Origin: Bdellovibrionota bacterium
Lineage (GTDB): Bacteria; Bdellovibrionota_C; UBA2361; JAAYZI01
Assembly (NCBI GenBank): GCA_050950765.1
Contig: JBMNIF010000004.1
Span: 1 to 26,393, forward strand
Direction of reading: 5' to 3'
Length of the DNA: 26,393 nt
Made by a program: the position numbers. Of the stretch, positions 18,001 through 24,000 are shown piece after piece; the first letter of the stretch is position 1; the number at the start of each line of letters is the position of its first letter.

Positions 18001-21000
18001 GCGGATGATGATCGCAACTGGGACTGTTGCTGCGGGTGTTGATTTTCCGGCGCGTACAGTTGTTGTAACTGCACACAGCAAACGTGGGACTAATGGCTTT
18101 CAGATCTTAAGCTCATCAGAATTTCAACAGATGTCGGGACGTGCTGGACGACGTGGTAAGGATAGTGTTGGATTTTGTTTGATTGCGCCGAGTGCTTATT
18201 CTGATGCTAGGGTTATTCATCAGGTAGCGGCGAGACCACCGGAGCCGTTAAGATCTGCGTATTATGCAGCGCCTTCGACGGTGTTAAATCTTTTAAAATA
18301 TAGGACTGCTGATGATCTACGCCACACCGTTTCAAGGAGTTTGGGGGCGTTTCTTGATCGTAAGGCAGCTAAGGTTTTGTTAAATGAAGCAGCTGAAGTG
18401 GGGAAGAAGACTGCTGAAAATCAGAAGCTAACACCTGAGCAACGTAAGAAAGGTGAGAAGCGTGCCAGAAGGATCGTTAAGGAGGCTGATCGTTTGGAGC
18501 AACGTCAACAAAATCTTCTTGAAACATCTTTGCAAGGTTTAACCCGTCTCGGTCATATAGTGGAAGGTAAATTAACAGAGAAGGGGGCTTGGGCAGCTGA
18601 ACTTTGCACCAGCATAGTGTTGGAGTTGGCGGAGGCTATCGATGAAGGGCTACTTGGTGAAGTTGTTCTTGATGAGTTGATAGGGTTAGTTGCTTCTATT
18701 GCAGGGGATCCGCACAGATCTTATTTCGGGATTAGGCAGAACCCGATTAAGAAAGAGTATTTTGCAAGGATGCAGGCGTGTGTGGATCGTGTGGCAGCGT
18801 TATATGAAGGTTCTCCTTTTGCCAGTGAGGTCGTGGTGCTTCCTGATGCAGCGGTTACGGTATTAACGTGGGTAGAATCGTCTTCGTGGCAAGATTTTGC
18901 AGCGTATTTAAGATTGGCGGGTGTGGCTGAAGGGGATGTAGCGCGGTTGATCTCTCAAACGGCGGATCACCTCAATCAGATTTCGAGACTTTCTGAGAGT
19001 CATCCTGATTTAGCAATTATGGCGTTAGAAGCGAGAAGGCTATTACTTAGACCACCAATTACAGACGCTTTTGAGGTCGGTGTATTAAATTAATCTTCAG
19101 AATTTTGTACCACCCTTTAGGCATAGTTGAGTGGGCTGCAACTGCGAAAAAATTGGTGCCACCCACCAGTGACGCTAGGACGGGCACGATTGCAGGATGG
19201 GATCGGCTAGATCTAGACGGAGGTTAAAAATTTGGTGCCACCCTTCAGCCGAAGGTGGGTGTCCTAATTGGCGGGGTCAAAAATTTGGTGCCACCCTTCA
19301 GGGACGATTGGGCGGGCTGATATTAAAAAGCAAGTTGGTTAGGTTTTCACGAGGGTTAAATTTTGGTGCCACCCTTCATTTTTGGCAGATCGGCTAGCTG
19401 CAGCTCTGGAGCTGCAGCTCTGGTGCCACCCACCAGTAAGACGGGATCAGCTAGATTTCTACGGAGGTTAAAAATAGAGGGGGGGTGATGGTAAAAACCT
19501 TATAATATTGAAGTTTAACTTTATGCTATGCTATTGTGCTTATTAAAATTTATTTTATAAAGCAGCTCTAAAAAGGTATTTTATGAATTCTGAAGATCGT
19601 GGCAGTCAAAATGGGAAGATAAAGATAGCACTTATCTGTGGTGGAAGTGGTGCGGAACGGGGTATCTCAATAAATTCAACACGTTCCGTGCTTGATCACT
19701 TACCCAATACAGTTGATATCATCCCGTTCTATTTTGATGTCTTTATGAATTGTTACCGGCTCTCTAAAGCGCAGCTCTATTCAAACACCCCTTCTGATTT
19801 TGATTTTAAACTAAAAGATAATGCGCGAAAAATTTCGCAGGAGGAGTTTATTTCTGAACTTAAAAACGTTGATCTAGCTTTTCCGATCATTCACGGCATC
19901 TTCGGAGAGGACGGGCAGTTGCAGCAGATCTTAGAAGATAACGAGATCCCTTATGTCGGAGGTTCGGCGCAAGCTTATAAAAAAGGTTTTCCCAAAGATG
20001 TTGCTAATACGATCCTAAAGGAAAACGGCTTTTTCACTATTCCGTTTGTCTCTGTTGAACGAACTGATTTAGTTGCAGCCAAAAAGATAGCTGAAAAGTT
20101 TTTTAAAGAAGAGAAACTAAGCAGAGCTATGATAAAACCTGCACTCGGAGGCTCTTCTATCGGTACTTATGATATTCATAATGCGGATGAGGCGGTTGCT
20201 GCGTTGCAAGATACGTTAAAGATCGGGTTACGTGTAGGAGATACCTTTATCATTGAGCCTTTTTGTAAGGGGCGTGAGTTCACCAGCATTATTGTGGAGA
20301 GTAAACACGGAGAGCCTGTGGCGTTTGTACCTACGGAGATTGAGATCGTTAAAGGTACTGAACTTTTTGATTTTAGAAGAAAATATCTTCCGACAGATTC
20401 ATCACTGTTACATTGTCCGCCGCGCTTTACTGATGAGCAGATCAAAGAGATTCAGAATGGGGCTGAGAAGATCTTTTCTCTCTTTGGATTTCACGATTTT
20501 ATGCGTGTAGATGGTTGGATACTTGATGATGGACGGATCTTAATCTCTGATATTAATCCCGTTAGTGGAATGGAGCAGTGTAGTTTTATCTTTGAGCAGA
20601 CATCCAGAGTCGGTTTTACGCATGCTTCTATTTTAGAATTGATCATAGGCAGTGCTTGCAGACGGTATAATATTAGCTCTGCACCGCTTGAAGTGAAAAA
20701 ATCGGTAGGAGAAAAGAAAAAGGTCTTTGTCTTAATGGGTGGAAAAACTGCTGAAAGGCAGGTCTCATTAATGAGTGGCACTAACGTTTGGTTAAAGCTC
20801 TCAAAGTCAGGTAATTTTGAAGCGGTGCCTTATTTAATGGATAAAAATGGTGAGGTTTGGAAGTTGTCATATTCTTTTGCGCTTAATCGTACAGTTGAAG
20901 AGATCTATCTCAACTGTTTGGATGCTACTGAGATAAACAAAAGATTAAAACCTTATGCCGAAGAGCTTTATAAAAAGTTAGATCTGCCGAATAGGTTTAA

Positions 21001-24000
21001 CGTTAAATCAAATACTCCTATAAAAATGACGTTGGATGATTTTTGTAAGGATGCCGTAATAAATGAAGCTTTTGTCTTTATCGGACTGCACGGCGGAGAG
21101 GGGGAGGATGGAACTATTCAGAAAAAGCTGGAGGACTATGGTTTGCTTTTTAACGGCTCTGATTCTGTGGCATCAAAGCTTTGCATAGATAAATTTAAAA
21201 CAGGAGAGGTTGTTAATGCCATAGGAGATCCGGAGATCGCATCTCTTCCAAAACAAAAATTAAATCTTAAAACTGCTAACGAGAGTGAGCTGCAAAAAAT
21301 TTGGAACGAGATGTATCAAAATACAGGTTTTGACACGATAGCGGTGAAACCTATCTCTGATGGATGTTCATCCGGAATTATTCGGCTTCATAATTTTGAT
21401 GAATTAAAGAGATATGTAGAGATTGCAAGTAACAGTGCCAATGAAGTTATTCCAGCGCATTCATTTCATAAACAAGATAATGAAGTCAATTTGCCGCAAG
21501 ATAAAAATCCTATTTATATCCTTGAGCCGTTTGTACAGGTTGATTATCTGCGGGTGGTAAAAAACGATATCGTTTACAAGAAAGATCAAGGTTGGCTTGA
21601 GTTCACGGTTGGTGTTTTAGAACAATCCGGTAAATATCATGCGCTGAATCCGAGCATTACCATTGCTGAAGGAGAGGTTTTAAGTCTGGAAGAGAAATTT
21701 CAAGGTGGAACGGGAGTTAACATTACTCCGCCCCCTGAGGATATCTTAAAAACAGAGTTTAGGGATAAAATAAAGTATGGTGTTGAGAAGGTTGCAAAAG
21801 CTCTCGGCATTAAGAGTTATGCTAGAATAGATATCTTTTTTAACCTTGATAGTGGCAAGATGATCGTAATTGAAGCTAATACCTTACCGGGGATGACACC
21901 AGCAACTGTTATTTACCATCAAGCTTTAGCGGAAGATCCACCGTTGAATCCGACAAAATTTATAGAGCGTATTATTAATGAGAAGATCTCTTCTAATGAA
22001 AGTTCTGATGAGTGTAAGAGAAAGATTAAAAGGCAACTTTGTTCTGCTGCGGCAGTGTAATTAGACAGTGTAATTAAACTGATAGTAATAACAGTTTGTA
22101 GATTATGTAAAAAGATGTAGCGATTTTTCTTTAGCATTAGAGAGGATTCAATGAAGATTGAGATAAAAAAGTTAATAGAAATTTTAAAGGCGACTCCCTC
22201 TAATGTCTCAGATTTTAACCGTGTACTAGAAACAGCTTTAATCTTTTTTGATTCAAGAAAGTTAGTTTCGGGAGGTATCTTTGTTGCTATTTCAACTACT
22301 AAAAATGATGGAGCGTTGTATATCAAAGATGCTATGACTAAAGGAGCTGTTCTAGCTATTGCAGAGAGTAATCCTGATAATTCTCCGAATGTGTTGTTGG
22401 TAGAGGATTCCGTTAAAGCTTTTCAAGAGTTAGGTAAATATGTCCGTTCGAAATATAAAGGGCTTGTTATCGGTATTACAGGCAGTTCCGGTAAGACAAC
22501 GGGGAAAGCTTTGATTGTACAGATGCTTTCTGCATTTTCACGTGTCTTTGCTGGTGAGACCTCTTTTAATAATCATATCGGAACTCCGTATAATTTGTGC
22601 CGACTTGATTTTGATAGTGATTATGCAGTTTTTGAAATGGGAATGGATCATGCCGGTGAGATCTCTCTCCTTACTGAGTTAGTTAAGCCGAACGTGGCAG
22701 CTGTTATGAACGTTTTTCCGATGCACATTGAGTATTTTAAAGAGTTCAAAGATATCGCTTTTGCAAAAGCAGAGATCTTTGAAAAAACTGTTCATCCTAA
22801 TGGGAAAGCTATTATTAATGCTGATACTAATTTTGCTAAAGAGGTCTTAATACCGCAGGCACAAAAGGCAGGGATTAAAGAGATTATTACCTTTGGTAAA
22901 AAAGGCGATATCACCTTAAAAAGTTGCAATTTTACCTATGATGGACAAACAGAGGTTGAGATCGGTGTTGGAGATAATGTTTTTAAACATCGTGATAACG
23001 GCTTGGGGGAACGTTTTGCTTATAACGCCACCTTTGCAGTGGCAGTTGCTACAGCATTAAATCTTGATATAGCAAAGGCGTTACAAGCGATCTCTTCTTT
23101 CTCTCCGTTAAAAGGGCGTGGTAAAGTTTCAAAGATTACGATTCCGCAAGGCGCAGCTATTACGTTGATAGATGATTCTTATAACGGTCAGCCGGAAGCC
23201 GTGCGTCAAGCTATTCAGACGTTGAGTATGATGAAGTGTCCTGAAGGTGCTCGCAAGATCGCCATTATCGGTAGGATGATGGAGTTGGGGGAGAGCTCTG
23301 AGGAGGAGCACCGTGCTGTCGGAAGAGTTTTAGCAGAGAGCACGGTTGATATAGTGATAGGGATTGGAGAAGAAACAAAAGCGATGTTGGCGGAGGTGCC
23401 ATCTCCAAAAGATAAGATCTTTCAAGAATCAGTTGATGGATTGTTTGAGGTGCTTACTACCAAGCTTTTAAAGGAAGGTGATATCGTATTGATTAAGGGT
23501 TCACATTACGCCTCAAGGGTCTTTGAATTGAGCGAAAAATTTCTAACACTGTAACCGCCCTTCAGTGACAACAGAACGGGCTGAAATTGTAGAACGAGTC
23601 GGTTAGGTTTCTACGGAGGTCAAAATTTGGTGCCACCCTTTAGTTAAAAGTGGGTGTCCTAATTGGCGGGGTTTGCGAATTTGGTGCCACCCACCAGTAG
23701 CACGGGGATCTGCTGACTTTGGCTAGACTTGGATCTGCTGCACCCTTCAGGGAAGGTTGAACGGGCTGCAACTGTAGAACAAGTCGGTTAGGTTTCTACG
23801 GAGGTCAAAAATTTGGTGCCACCCACCAGTAAGACGGGATCAGCTAGATTTCTTTAAAATTACAACTTCTAATAATATCAAGATGTTAGCAAAATATTAG
23901 GGTTTGCGAATTTGGTGCCACCCTTTAGTTAAAGGTGGGTGTCCTAATTGGGAGGAGGTCAAAAATCTGGTGCCACCCTTCAGTGCTGCTGGGACGGGCT

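What a model noticed while it worked through the whole genome (the two positions that open the first line are those of the whole stretch)
19583..22060. Tandem D-Ala-D-Ala ligase: two Ddl modules in one 825-aa protein
The only Ddl gene (g02036, before murF) encodes two complete ATP-grasp Ddl modules in tandem (14-355 and 380-798), the second with a 140-residue insert. I read it as a covalent version of the Ddl homodimer whose halves have diverged, one perhaps regulatory or with another D-amino-acid specificity. New would be a single-chain Ddl pair as the standard cell-wall enzyme of a bacterial order.
Evidence so far: Pfam Dala_Dala_lig_N 1.7e-21, _C 5.1e-27, _N 2.0e-19, _C 4.1e-13; Swiss-Prot hits cover only 8-361. 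No other Dala_Dala_lig_N row in the genome. Both halves keep the C-terminal loop (DINPVSG, EANTLPG; call 124; role recalled). G024 has one hit of 42% identity over 13-793. Paper search (5 listed of 48, call 126): none on a Ddl-Ddl fusion.
(Added by a program. Inside this text positions count along the whole contig: contig position 1 is position 1 of the stretch shown here. "Call 12" and the like, gene names such as g00115 and contig names such as C1 are that model's own, and its searches are not shown. The text may have been shortened before it was handed on; [...] marks where a part breaks off. The agent that wrote the report below was given it as the finding of a first reader that could run no searches.)

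Follow-up and report, generated by a model that had tools for sequence, protein, structure and literature searches.

The report
Plant-type double D-Ala-D-Ala ligase gene
This gene really does encode two different D-alanine-D-alanine ligase units in one protein, but it belongs to a large old family that includes the double DDL enzyme of plants, so only the fixed difference between its two active sites is still unexplained.

Summary
Window 19583-22060 (+) is one 825-aa ORF with two complete Ddl modules. It is the genome's only Ddl and lies 90 bp upstream of murF. The "140-residue insert" does not hold: module 2 has three insertions of 29, 19 and 18 aa.

The fusion is not new, and it is not the standard enzyme of the order. 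Full-length homologues occur in 9 of 40 relatives of the order, 21 of 124 genomes of the phylum sample and 495 species genomes of several phyla. A Coffea protein aligns over both modules at 37% identity. Plant DDL is already published as "a fusion of two DDL genes" (PMC9954125, passages).

Each module forms its own clade. Both keep the catalytic set, each with a fixed change, in 38 of 38 rows: module 1 has E270D, module 2 has Y216F plus S150C (or S). The modules evolve equally slowly and are modelled as one rigid pseudo-dimer.

Best reading: the housekeeping D-Ala-D-Ala supplier for MurF. The role of the Phe-type second site is open.

Earlier notes of this scan describe this family on other DNA at least 13 times.

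Verdict: new member of a known kind, interest 0.33.

The parts
19583..22060 (+). Tandem ddl-ddl gene, 825 aa (P0001), stop codon included
   Evidence: ORF list and translation. Pfam finds the N domain twice and the C domain in 3 stretches. NCBIfam TIGR01205 scores 308.9 bits against a cut-off of 245.65.
19616..20668 (+). Module 1 (residues 12-362): Ddl with the canonical Glu-Ser-Tyr triad (E25, S191, Y268) and Asp at the E270 position (D323, codon 20549-20551)
   Evidence: PDB phmmer E 9.9e-28. VIA Z 39.2, rmsd 2.2, 323 residues aligned to Thermus Ddl 6u1f_A over model residues 11-364. Residue mapping against E. coli DdlB.
20669..20716 (+). Linker (residues 363-378), modelled as coil
   Evidence: Secondary structure of the AF2 model; the ten-residue blocks 361-370 and 371-380 average pLDDT 83 and 80.
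20717..21982 (+). Module 2 (residues 379-800): Ddl with Glu-Cys-Phe in place of the triad (E391, C595 codon 21365-21367, F706 codon 21698-21700) and canonical R748, D750, E764, N766
   Evidence: PDB phmmer E 4.2e-19. NCBIfam TIGR01205 scores 140.5 bits for the half alone. Residue mapping.
20906..20992 (+). Insertion 1 of module 2 (residues 442-470), helical, in the predicted interface with module 1
   Evidence: Alignment of the halves. Helices 438-446 and 448-466 in the model. Contacts of residues 443-467 with module 1 residues 238-249, 287 and 341-346.
21437..21493 (+). Insertion 2 of module 2 (residues 619-637)
   Evidence: Alignment of the halves. The insertions are the least conserved part: mean pairwise identity 0.34.
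21545..21598 (+). Insertion 3 of module 2 (residues 655-672), a beta hairpin that touches module 1 in the model
   Evidence: strands 655-659 and 662-666. (contacts of residues 658 and 661-663).
21983..22057 (+). Variable C-terminal tail (residues 801-825)
   Evidence: The blocks covering 811-825 average pLDDT 60-67. Relatives match only up to about residue 800.
22151..23554 (+). [quoted passage not shown]
   Evidence: Pfam Mur_ligase_M 1.1e-34 and Mur_ligase_C 2.5e-15. The same order is found in 6 close relatives: L022, L023, L024, L026, L027, L028.

Best explanation
The gene is a bacterial member of the plant-type two-module D-alanine-D-alanine ligase family (DDL). One old fusion joined two Ddl units that have stayed together ever since.

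In this genome it is the only Ddl. [quoted passage not shown] This step is inferred from the pathway and the gene context.

The two units fold back on each other as an intramolecular copy of the Ddl homodimer. An extra helix of unit 2 adds to the contact. This is predicted, not measured.

Both units keep a full ATP-grasp catalytic set, so both are probably active (inferred). Unit 1 has the dipeptide-type Glu-Ser-Tyr pocket with Asp at one Mg2+ ligand position. Unit 2 has a fixed Glu-Cys-Phe pocket. What that second pocket changes is not known.
For: Architecture and sole-copy status.

Family size:
- The best 120 of 4280 hits (among 8000 candidates scored) cover 94-100% of the query at 46-99% identity and are 780-927 aa long.
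- 366 cluster representatives score E<=1e-30.
- 495 of 510 pattern hits among 185,579 species genomes encode a relative.

Plant link:
- P0183 is Coffea eugenioides XP_027176337.1.
- It aligns at 37% identity over 877 columns that span both modules.
- An ESM Atlas cluster that is 94% Eukaryota, mostly Streptophyta, scores 0.96.

One origin: in a tree of 99 rows the 38 module-1 rows form one branch (SH-aLRT 100) and the 38 module-2 rows another (100). The 22 single Ddls of the same order, E. coli DdlA and E. coli DdlB lie outside both.

Catalytic residues:
- In 105 of 105 family members E15, K97, K144, E180, E187, K215, R255 and N272 are kept in both halves, and D257 in 104 and 105. E270D is fixed in half 1 and Y216F in half 2; S150 is C in 98 and S in 7.
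- The same pattern holds in 38 of 38 rows, including Coffea and eight representatives at 31-36% identity.

Equal constraint: mean pairwise identity is 0.544 for module 1 and 0.550 for the core of module 2.

Housekeeping role:
- 28 of 30 carrier genomes have no other Dala_Dala_lig_N match.
- The gene sits in the classical ddl slot (murC-murB upstream, ftsQ-ftsA next door) in several loci, or beside PBP1a, alanine racemase or murF.
- An alanine racemase is present in this genome.

Packing:
- AF2 gives pLDDT 91.9 and pTM 0.91 for the whole chain.
- Complex prediction on the two halves scored 0.88, best of 3 controls 0.00. That mark was reached by 116 of 157 solved complexes and 2 of 215 mismatched pairs. 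The runs share at least 74% of contacts and the partner's pLDDT is at least 83. My own alignment was used, so these counts hold only roughly.
- The contacts use equivalent elements of both halves: 31-39 with 397-408, 62-78 with 430-440, 275-279 with 711-714, 332-353 with 773-791.
Against: - No activity of either module was measured here, and I saw none reported for any bacterial member.
- The roles of the numbered residues are recalled from the E. coli DdlB literature, not tested.
- Each half alone scores below the curated TIGR01205 cut-off (173.8 and 140.5 against 245.65 bits).
- Half 1 has Asp for a Mg2+ ligand. Half 2 lacks the Ser-Tyr pair of the triad.
- Two carriers (G015, G007) also keep a single Ddl, so the tandem form need not be sufficient everywhere.
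- Ddl homodimers are solved, so the complex score may reflect likeness to them. I had no coordinates, so I could not superpose the model on a real dimer.
- murF adjacency holds only in close relatives: 6 of the 7 loci at 60% identity or more over the whole gene (the seventh ends 110 bp after the gene) and none of the other lineages.
- Plants keep DDL even where MURF is lost (PMC4815162, passages). This hints at a role beyond feeding MurF.
Confidence: 0.8

Rival explanations
1. Division of labour. Unit 1 makes D-Ala-D-Ala for MurF. Unit 2, with its Glu-Cys-Phe pocket, makes a different product: D-Ala-D-lactate, D-Ala-D-Ser or another D-aminoacyl compound. That product goes to an alternative precursor or into D-amino-acid metabolism.
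For: - Phe at the Tyr216 position is fixed in module 2 in 105 of 105 and 38 of 38 rows.
- Ser150 is replaced by Cys in 98 of 105 rows.
- A D-Ala-D-Ala dipeptidase (Peptidase_M15) gene lies next to the tandem gene in L062 and L078 (strong matches) and L032 (weak), out of 35 loci examined.
- DDL is kept in plants and algae that lack MURF (PMC4815162, passages).
Against: - The Phe/Tyr rule was established in lactic acid bacteria and E. coli DdlB, not in this family.
- From recall, the E. coli Y216F enzyme still makes D-Ala-D-Ala. Its structure with a phosphinate exists (1iow, title seen).
- No Peptidase_M15 gene was found in this 94%-complete genome.
- No lactate dehydrogenase gene is linked to the locus.
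- The other 32 of the 35 loci show no van-like neighbours.
- From recall of Hirano 2016, which I could not open, the moss knockout is rescued by D-Ala-D-Ala.
Confidence: 0.28
2. One unit is catalytically silent. It serves only as the obligatory dimer partner or as an allosteric (regulatory) subunit for the other.
For: - Each unit departs from the canonical set: E270D in unit 1, and loss of the Ser-Tyr pair in unit 2.
- Each half alone scores below the curated Ddl cut-off.
- Fused pseudo-dimers with one dead site are common among enzymes (general knowledge).
Against: - The phosphate-, Mg2+- and substrate-binding residues are invariant or nearly so in both units, across bacteria of several phyla and a plant.
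- Both units evolve at the same slow rate.
- A dead site would be expected to drift.
Confidence: 0.12
3. Artefact: two adjacent ddl genes were joined by an assembly or sequencing error.
For: The contig is short (26.4 kb). One relative, L100/G045, has the gene split into frames of 124-128 and 722 aa.
Against: - The same uninterrupted architecture recurs in thousands of proteins from independent assemblies and in plant genomes.
- A 99%-identical 825-aa protein exists on other contigs (P0002).
- The linker is in frame and is modelled as a defined coil.
Confidence: 0.01

Closest known systems
Plant and green-algal DDL (Physcomitrium PpDdl, Arabidopsis At-DDL; tested here with Coffea eugenioides XP_027176337.1 = P0183)
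   Same: - Two Ddl modules in one chain.
- Collinear over both modules: 37% identity over 877 columns.
- The same module-specific residues (E270D; Y216F plus S150C) and the same motifs (QxYSNTPxDFDFKL, MSGTNVWL, EEKFQGGTG).
- Each plant half lies inside the matching bacterial clade.
- The fusion is described in PMC9954125 (passages).
   Different: - The plant protein has about 70 extra N-terminal residues (match starts at residue 77-78), which I take to be a transit peptide (recalled, not tested), and several longer loops.
- It works in or around plastids.
- The window's gene is chromosomal, sits next to murF, and is the organism's only Ddl.
Canonical single-module Ddl (E. coli DdlB and DdlA, Thermus Ddl; TIGR01205, PF01820 + PF07478)
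   Same: - ATP-grasp fold in both modules. Module 1 gives VIA Z 39.2 to 6u1f_A and 34.0 to 2dln.
- All phosphate- and Mg-binding residues are kept.
- Homodimer-like packing is predicted between the modules.
   Different: - One chain instead of two.
- The modules are only 21% identical to each other.
- Each module forms a clade apart from the single Ddls of the same order.
- Fixed E270D in module 1. Fixed Y216F and S150C, plus three insertions, in module 2.
Phe-type D-Ala-D-lactate ligases of lactic acid bacteria (Leuconostoc LmDdl2, PDB 1ehi) and VanA/VanB
   Same: Module 2 has Phe at the position that decides depsipeptide or dipeptide synthesis in those enzymes (PMC5996685). The same fold: 1ehi_A gives Z 38.5, though that row aligned to module 1.
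   Different: - No sequence grouping with them was shown. NCBIfam D_ala_D_lac models score far below their cut-offs.
- No vanH or vanX partner genes are in this window.
- The product is unknown.
MurC-Ddl fusion of many Chlamydiae (NCBIfam NF011171)
   Same: A Ddl module fused to another cell-wall ligase in one chain. It occurs in some of the same phyla (PMC5814848, passages).
   Different: - The partner there is MurC, not a second Ddl.
- The window protein scores 176 bits against that model's cut-off of 1015.
- The five carrier genomes with chlamydial labels that I examined have only the tandem Ddl.

Membership tests
D-Ala-D-Ala ligase superfamily (ATP-grasp; PF01820 + PF07478, TIGR01205) | N-terminal Ddl domain followed by an ATP-grasp C domain | tested here: met
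   Present twice: Pfam N domain 2 stretches, C domain 3 stretches. Whole protein scores 308.9 bits against the TIGR01205 cut-off of 245.65. Fold match Z 39.2 for module 1. PDB sequence matches for both halves.
D-Ala-D-Ala ligase superfamily (ATP-grasp; PF01820 + PF07478, TIGR01205) | ATP/Mg2+ and transition-state residues (E. coli DdlB K97, K144, E180, E187, K215, R255, D257, E270, N272; roles recalled) | tested here: met
   All are kept in both modules, except E270 to D in module 1, a conservative change fixed in 105 of 105 rows.
D-Ala-D-Ala ligase superfamily (ATP-grasp; PF01820 + PF07478, TIGR01205) | Glu15-Ser150-Tyr216 triad of dipeptide-forming Ddl (role recalled; Tyr/Phe rule from PMC5996685) | tested here: inconclusive
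   Met in module 1 (E25, S191, Y268). Not met in module 2 (E391, C595, F706).
D-Ala-D-Ala ligase superfamily (ATP-grasp; PF01820 + PF07478, TIGR01205) | ATP-dependent synthesis of D-Ala-D-Ala | not testable with these tools
   Only context is available: it is the sole Ddl of the genome, murF is next door and an alanine racemase is present.
Plant-type two-module DDL | Two Ddl modules in one chain, collinear with plant DDL over both | tested here: met
   BLASTP against Coffea P0183: 37% identity over 877 columns, query 10-799 to subject 78-949. phmmer gives one stretch, 9-798 to 77-948, E 5e-159.
Plant-type two-module DDL | Module-specific fixed residues (module 1 Tyr and Asp; module 2 Phe and Cys/Ser with Glu) | tested here: met
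   38 of 38 rows, the plant included. 105 of 105 family proteins (16 of 121 proteins were dropped because my split pattern did not match them).
Plant-type two-module DDL | Each module groups with the same module of other members, not with single Ddls | tested here: met
   Module 1 clade has SH-aLRT 100 and module 2 clade 100; 99 rows, quick IQ-TREE, midpoint root for drawing only.
Plant-type two-module DDL | Supplies D-Ala-D-Ala for peptidoglycan (moss knockout phenotype) | not testable with these tools
   Known for moss from PMC9954125 and PMC9434261 (passages). For this bacterium it is inferred from context.
Depsipeptide (D-Ala-D-lactate) ligases, Phe or VanA type | Phe (or His in VanA) at the omega-loop position in place of Tyr216 | tested here: met
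   F706 in module 2 only. The rule comes from PMC5996685.
Depsipeptide (D-Ala-D-lactate) ligases, Phe or VanA type | Linked D-lactate supply and D-Ala-D-Ala dipeptidase (vanH/vanX-like) genes | tested here: not met
   None among the 14 window ORFs scanned. No Peptidase_M15 gene found in the 94%-complete genome. Only generic 2-hydroxyacid dehydrogenases, all elsewhere. A dipeptidase is next door in 2-3 of 35 other loci.
Depsipeptide (D-Ala-D-lactate) ligases, Phe or VanA type | Score above the curated NCBIfam D_ala_D_lac cut-off | tested here: not met
   NF000206 scores 164 bits for the whole protein and 68 bits for module 2, against a cut-off of 550.

The most novel reading that the evidence does not exclude
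The second module is a chemically distinct ligase. Its invariant Glu-Cys-Phe pocket, conserved from Bdellovibrionota, Chlamydiae and Patescibacteria to plants, would make a product other than D-Ala-D-Ala, such as a D-Ala-D-hydroxyacid or another D-aminoacyl dipeptide. The family would then be a built-in two-product enzyme. That would also explain why plants and algae keep DDL after losing MurF.
Probability: 0.25. Interest if true: 0.7.

Novelty: new member of a known kind. Interest (0 to 1): 0.33.

Why it matters
As it stands, the gene is an ordinary member of a family whose architecture is already published for plants, and which this scan has met many times.

The point worth a bench test is general to the family. 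Hundreds of mostly uncultured bacteria rely on this double enzyme as their only Ddl, and plants carry it too. By the record labels, the bacteria include Chlamydiae, Rickettsiales- and Holospora-like Alphaproteobacteria, Bdellovibrionota and Patescibacteria.

Its two active sites differ in a fixed way. One of those differences is at the very position known to switch Ddl between dipeptide and depsipeptide synthesis. In the papers I could search, nobody has measured what each site makes.

The answer bears on three things: the chemistry of cell-wall precursors in these lineages, the origin of plant DDL, and why angiosperms retain it.

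Tried and rejected
- **murF linkage as a family trait:** rejected. It holds only in 6 close relatives. It is absent in the other lineages, and murF lies upstream on the other strand in L018 and L050.
- **A conserved van-like neighbourhood:** rejected. A Peptidase_M15 gene is next door in only 2-3 of 35 loci and none was found in this genome.
- **The flanking TGGTGCCACCC repeat arrays as marks of a mobile ddl-murF cassette:** rejected. The motif occurs 943 times genome-wide.
- **A dedicated NCBIfam model for the tandem form:** none among the 25 of 31 families shown.
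- **Structure neighbours for module 2:** all 50 rows shown by VIA aligned to module 1. Module 2's fold rests on sequence matches and on the AF2 model's confidence. I did not fold it alone.
- **Geometry of the pseudo-dimer:** I had no access to model coordinates, so I could not superpose on a solved Ddl dimer.
- **Papers not obtained:** Hirano 2016 (PMC4981129, DOI 10.1105/tpc.16.00104) and Machida 2006 (PMC1458953) are not held or timed out. What I say of them is recalled or taken from citing papers.
- **Supplement of PMC9954125:** the one text file held contains none of three family motifs. Its Figure S3 was not seen.
- **Searches for a described bacterial tandem Ddl**: among the listed papers I opened, the only description of a Ddl-Ddl fusion was the plant one. 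Subscription journals are mostly not in the library.
- **Direction of transfer** between bacteria and plants, or among phyla: not tested. The tree is unrooted.

Full report
**1. Observation**

Window 19583-22060 (+) is a single ORF of 825 codons with no internal stop.

- Pfam finds Dala_Dala_lig_N twice and Dala_Dala_lig_C in three stretches.
- Searched alone, residues 1-370 match solved Ddl enzymes along their whole length. The best is Salmonella DdlA 3q1k_A, E 9.9e-28, over query residues 11-365.
- Residues 371-825 match them too. The best is VanG 4fu0_A, E 4.2e-19.
- NCBIfam puts the whole protein above the TIGR01205 cut-off (308.9 against 245.65 bits). Each half alone is below it (173.8 and 140.5). 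None of the 25 families shown (of 31) is a model for a double form.
- The two halves are 21% identical to each other over 407 columns.

The genome is 2.64 Mb in 5 contigs and 94% complete. Its only two Dala_Dala_lig_N matches are the two halves of this ORF. The remaining Dala_Dala_lig_C matches lie in frames of 463, 1072, 419, 420 and 285 aa, which are other ATP-grasp enzymes.

murF follows 90 bp downstream. murC, murB, ftsQ, ftsA and ftsZ lie 7-13 kb upstream in the window, with no ddl in its classical slot between murB and ftsQ.

Against module 1, module 2 has insertions at 442-470, 619-637 and 655-672 (29 + 19 + 18 aa) and a longer tail.

**2. How widespread it is**

- Nine of 40 relatives in the same order carry a full-length homologue at 41-47% identity. 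The others matched only as single modules, in frames mostly of about 310-430 aa.
- In a sample of 124 genomes of the phylum (this genome included), 21 have a match at E<=1e-100. Among good-quality genomes it is 10 of 73.
- So it is not the standard enzyme of the order.
- Outside the order the family is large. The best 120 of 4280 hits in the 90%-clustered protein collection (8000 candidates scored) are proteins of 780-927 aa that cover 94-100% of the query.
- 366 representatives of 50% clusters score E<=1e-30.
- A scan of one genome per species with two family-specific peptide patterns found 495 relatives among 510 pattern hits.
- I counted the submitters' record titles of the best 80 loci: 40 alphaproteobacterial labels (Rhodospirillaceae, Rickettsiales, Micavibrio, Holosporaceae and others), 13 chlamydial, 8 Patescibacteria (Peregrinibacteria, Peribacteria, Saccharibacteria, Liptonbacteria), 3 Bdellovibrio-type, 2 gammaproteobacterial, and 14 unspecific or doubtful. 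All but three titles are marked as metagenome-assembled genomes, and those three read 'uncultured'.
- Earlier notes of this scan call the present genome an uncultured Bdellovibrionota. Its closest homologue, L026, is labelled Bdellovibrionales.

**3. It is the plant DDL family**

- I looked up ten representatives that are longer than the window protein, most with an extra N-terminal stretch before the match. One, P0183, is Coffea eugenioides XP_027176337.1, in a cluster of 13 of which 10 bear Coffea names.
- It aligns with the window protein over both modules: 37% identity over 877 columns, query 10-799 to subject 78-949. It shares the family motifs.
- The ESM Atlas independently lists a cluster that is 94% Eukaryota, mostly Streptophyta, at score 0.96 (a lead only).
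[quoted passage not shown] It also states that moss Ddl knockouts can no longer dimerise D-alanine.
- PMC2376095 (passages) lists a D-Ala-D-Ala ligase among plant genes of chlamydial affinity.
- PMC9434261 (passages) says instead that the moss Ddl is closest to the Fibrobacteres-Chlorobi-Bacteroidetes group.

For bacteria, six searches turned up no description among the listed papers I opened. The library lacks most subscription journals, and I could not open Hirano 2016 or Machida 2006.

**4. One old fusion, both halves under constraint**

The tree has 99 rows: 38 tandem proteins split at the linker, 21 single Ddls of the same order, and E. coli DdlA and DdlB. One single (L019) was dropped because its frame was mis-trimmed.

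- The module-1 rows form one branch (SH-aLRT 100) and the module-2 rows another (100).
- The single Ddls of the order together with E. coli DdlA form a third branch (97). E. coli DdlB stands alone.
- The Coffea halves fall inside the respective clades.
- The window's halves group with L026 and L028 in both subtrees. Tandem genes of other genomes of the same order fall elsewhere; G030, for example, falls among Patescibacteria sequences. This suggests horizontal spread. The tree is unrooted and I did not test that.

I used E. coli DdlB as the numbering reference. The residue roles are recalled from the DdlB literature.

- Both halves keep E15, K97, K144, E180, E187, K215, R255 and N272 in 105 of 105 family proteins, and D257 in 104 and 105.
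- Half 1 has Y216 and an invariant E270D.
- Half 2 has an invariant Y216F, with S150 replaced by C in 98 rows and kept as S in 7, plus S281T and L282V (V in 104 of 105). Sixteen of 121 proteins were left out because my split pattern missed them.
- A second alignment-based table gave the same pattern in 38 of 38 rows. It included Coffea and eight representatives at 31-36% identity.
- In the window the residues are E25, S191, K267, Y268, R308, D310, D323, N325 and E391, C595, K705, F706, R748, D750, E764, N766.
- Mean pairwise identity across 102 family members is 0.544 for module 1 and 0.550 for the core of module 2. It is 0.341 for the insertions.

Neither half is decaying.

**5. Role**

- In 28 of 30 genomes that carry the gene there is no third Dala_Dala_lig_N match. 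Only G015 and G007 keep a single Ddl as well. The 30 were ten genomes of the order and twenty behind loci of other phyla, five of them with chlamydial labels.
- Neighbours of the gene in 35 loci (139 ORFs scanned) include:
  - murC and murB upstream in 3 loci;
  - ftsQ, usually with ftsA, next door in 9;
  - PBP1a in 2;
  - a D-Ala-D-Ala dipeptidase in 2 (plus 1 weak match);
  - alanine racemase in 1;
  - Lnt in 6 chlamydial loci.
- murF directly downstream is a trait of the window's close kin only: 6 loci.
- This genome has an alanine racemase.

The plain reading is that the enzyme replaces the ordinary Ddl and feeds MurF.

**6. How the two modules sit**

- AlphaFold2 with a 102-row family alignment gives mean pLDDT 91.9 and pTM 0.91 for the whole 825 residues. 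That implies a fixed mutual orientation.
- Module 1 superposes on Thermus Ddl with ATP and D-Ala-D-Ala: 6u1f_A, Z 39.2, rmsd 2.2 over 323 residues. All rows listed cover module 1 only.
That mark was reached by 116 of 157 solved complexes and 2 of 215 mismatched pairs. The runs agree in at least 74% of contacts and the partner's pLDDT is at least 83. My own alignment was used, so these counts hold only roughly.
- Ddl homodimers are solved, so this pass may reflect likeness to them.
- The contact lists pair equivalent elements of the two halves: 31-39 with 397-408, 62-78 with 430-440, 275-279 with 711-714, 332-353 with 773-791. A two-fold dimer would give this pattern.
- The module-2 insertion helix (443-467) and hairpin (658-663) add asymmetric contacts with module 1.
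- The family-specific motif QLYSNTPSDFDFKL of module 1 lies in the interface.
- I could not superpose coordinates on a real dimer.

**7. What stays open**

Phe at the Tyr216 position decides between depsipeptide and dipeptide synthesis in lactic-acid-bacterial Ddl (PMC5996685, abstract and passages). The E. coli Y216F enzyme has been crystallised (title of 1iow).

Module 2 carries this Phe invariantly, together with Cys for Ser150. This could mean a second product.

- It would fit the occasional dipeptidase neighbour.
- It would fit the retention of DDL in plants and algae that lack MURF (PMC4815162, passages).
- Against it, this window has no van-like partners.
- The rule has not been tested in this family.
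- From recall, Y216F DdlB still makes D-Ala-D-Ala.

I put about 0.25-0.3 on a distinct product, about 0.12 on one silent module, and the rest on two active dipeptide sites.

**8. Verdict**

The interpretation as a covalent, diverged Ddl pair is supported by models. The claims of novelty and of an order-wide standard enzyme are not supported.

The gene is a new bacterial member of a known kind, plant-type two-module DDL. Earlier notes of this scan describe the same family on other DNA at least 13 times, with the same conclusion. I reached the plant link independently before reading those notes.

Noticed in passing
window 19154-19431 and 23628-24057: Non-coding repeat arrays with the core TGGTGCCACCC, 5 and 6 copies, all on the + strand. 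They bracket the ddl-ddl/murF pair. There are 11 copies in the window against 0.01 expected. The motif occurs 943 times in the genome, and the reversed control 0 times. It is therefore a genome-wide intergenic repeat, not a mark of this locus.
   Followed up: partly
window 16316-17227 and 17666-19093: A Ski2-like helicase appears split into two ORFs: DEAD/ResIII (303 aa), then Helicase_C + DSHCT (475 aa). They are separated by a 438-bp gap. It may be a broken gene, or the gap may hold an insertion.
   Followed up: no
window 8168-10057: murB (8168-9064) is followed directly by ftsQ (9233-10057). The classical ddl slot is empty here, and the only ddl lies 9.5 kb downstream beside murF. In relatives L036 and L092 the tandem gene sits between murB and ftsQ; in L051 murC and murB are upstream but no ftsQ follows.
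   Followed up: partly
P0022-P0031, P0039, P0040, P0043, P0044, P0047 and others; L029 (913-aa frame): A subgroup of about 900-aa relatives carries an N-terminal HTH_3/HigA-type DNA-binding domain fused in front of the two Ddl modules. Sources name some of them 'HigA family addiction module antidote'.
   Followed up: no
L100 (G045, complete Peregrinibacteria genome) 5980-8408: Here the tandem gene is split: a 124-128-aa frame holding the first N domain, then a 722-aa frame. Several other matches carry in-frame stops: G097 has 2 TAA, G102 has 1 TAG, G039 has 1 TAA, and the second copy in G068 has 1 TAA.
   Followed up: no
L062 8437-9147, L078 8438-9151, L032 4682-5902: A D-Ala-D-Ala dipeptidase (Peptidase_M15, VanX/DdpX type) gene lies next to the tandem ddl in these alphaproteobacterial loci (E 3.7e-32, 1.7e-34, and a weak 6e-07).
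   Followed up: partly
L076 6001-13317; G068: tblastn hits to the tandem protein span 7.3 kb in L076 (record labelled Methanocella, a doubtful label), which suggests two copies side by side. G068 has two full-length copies on different contigs.
   Followed up: no
window 4901-6460: A 519-aa DDE_Tnp_1 transposase ORF lies just upstream of murC.
   Followed up: no
window 24930-25484 (-): A 184-aa ORF scores for both Glyco_trans_1_2 (2.7e-23) and the MCP signalling domain (4.9e-10, residues 13-51). This is an odd combination.
   Followed up: no
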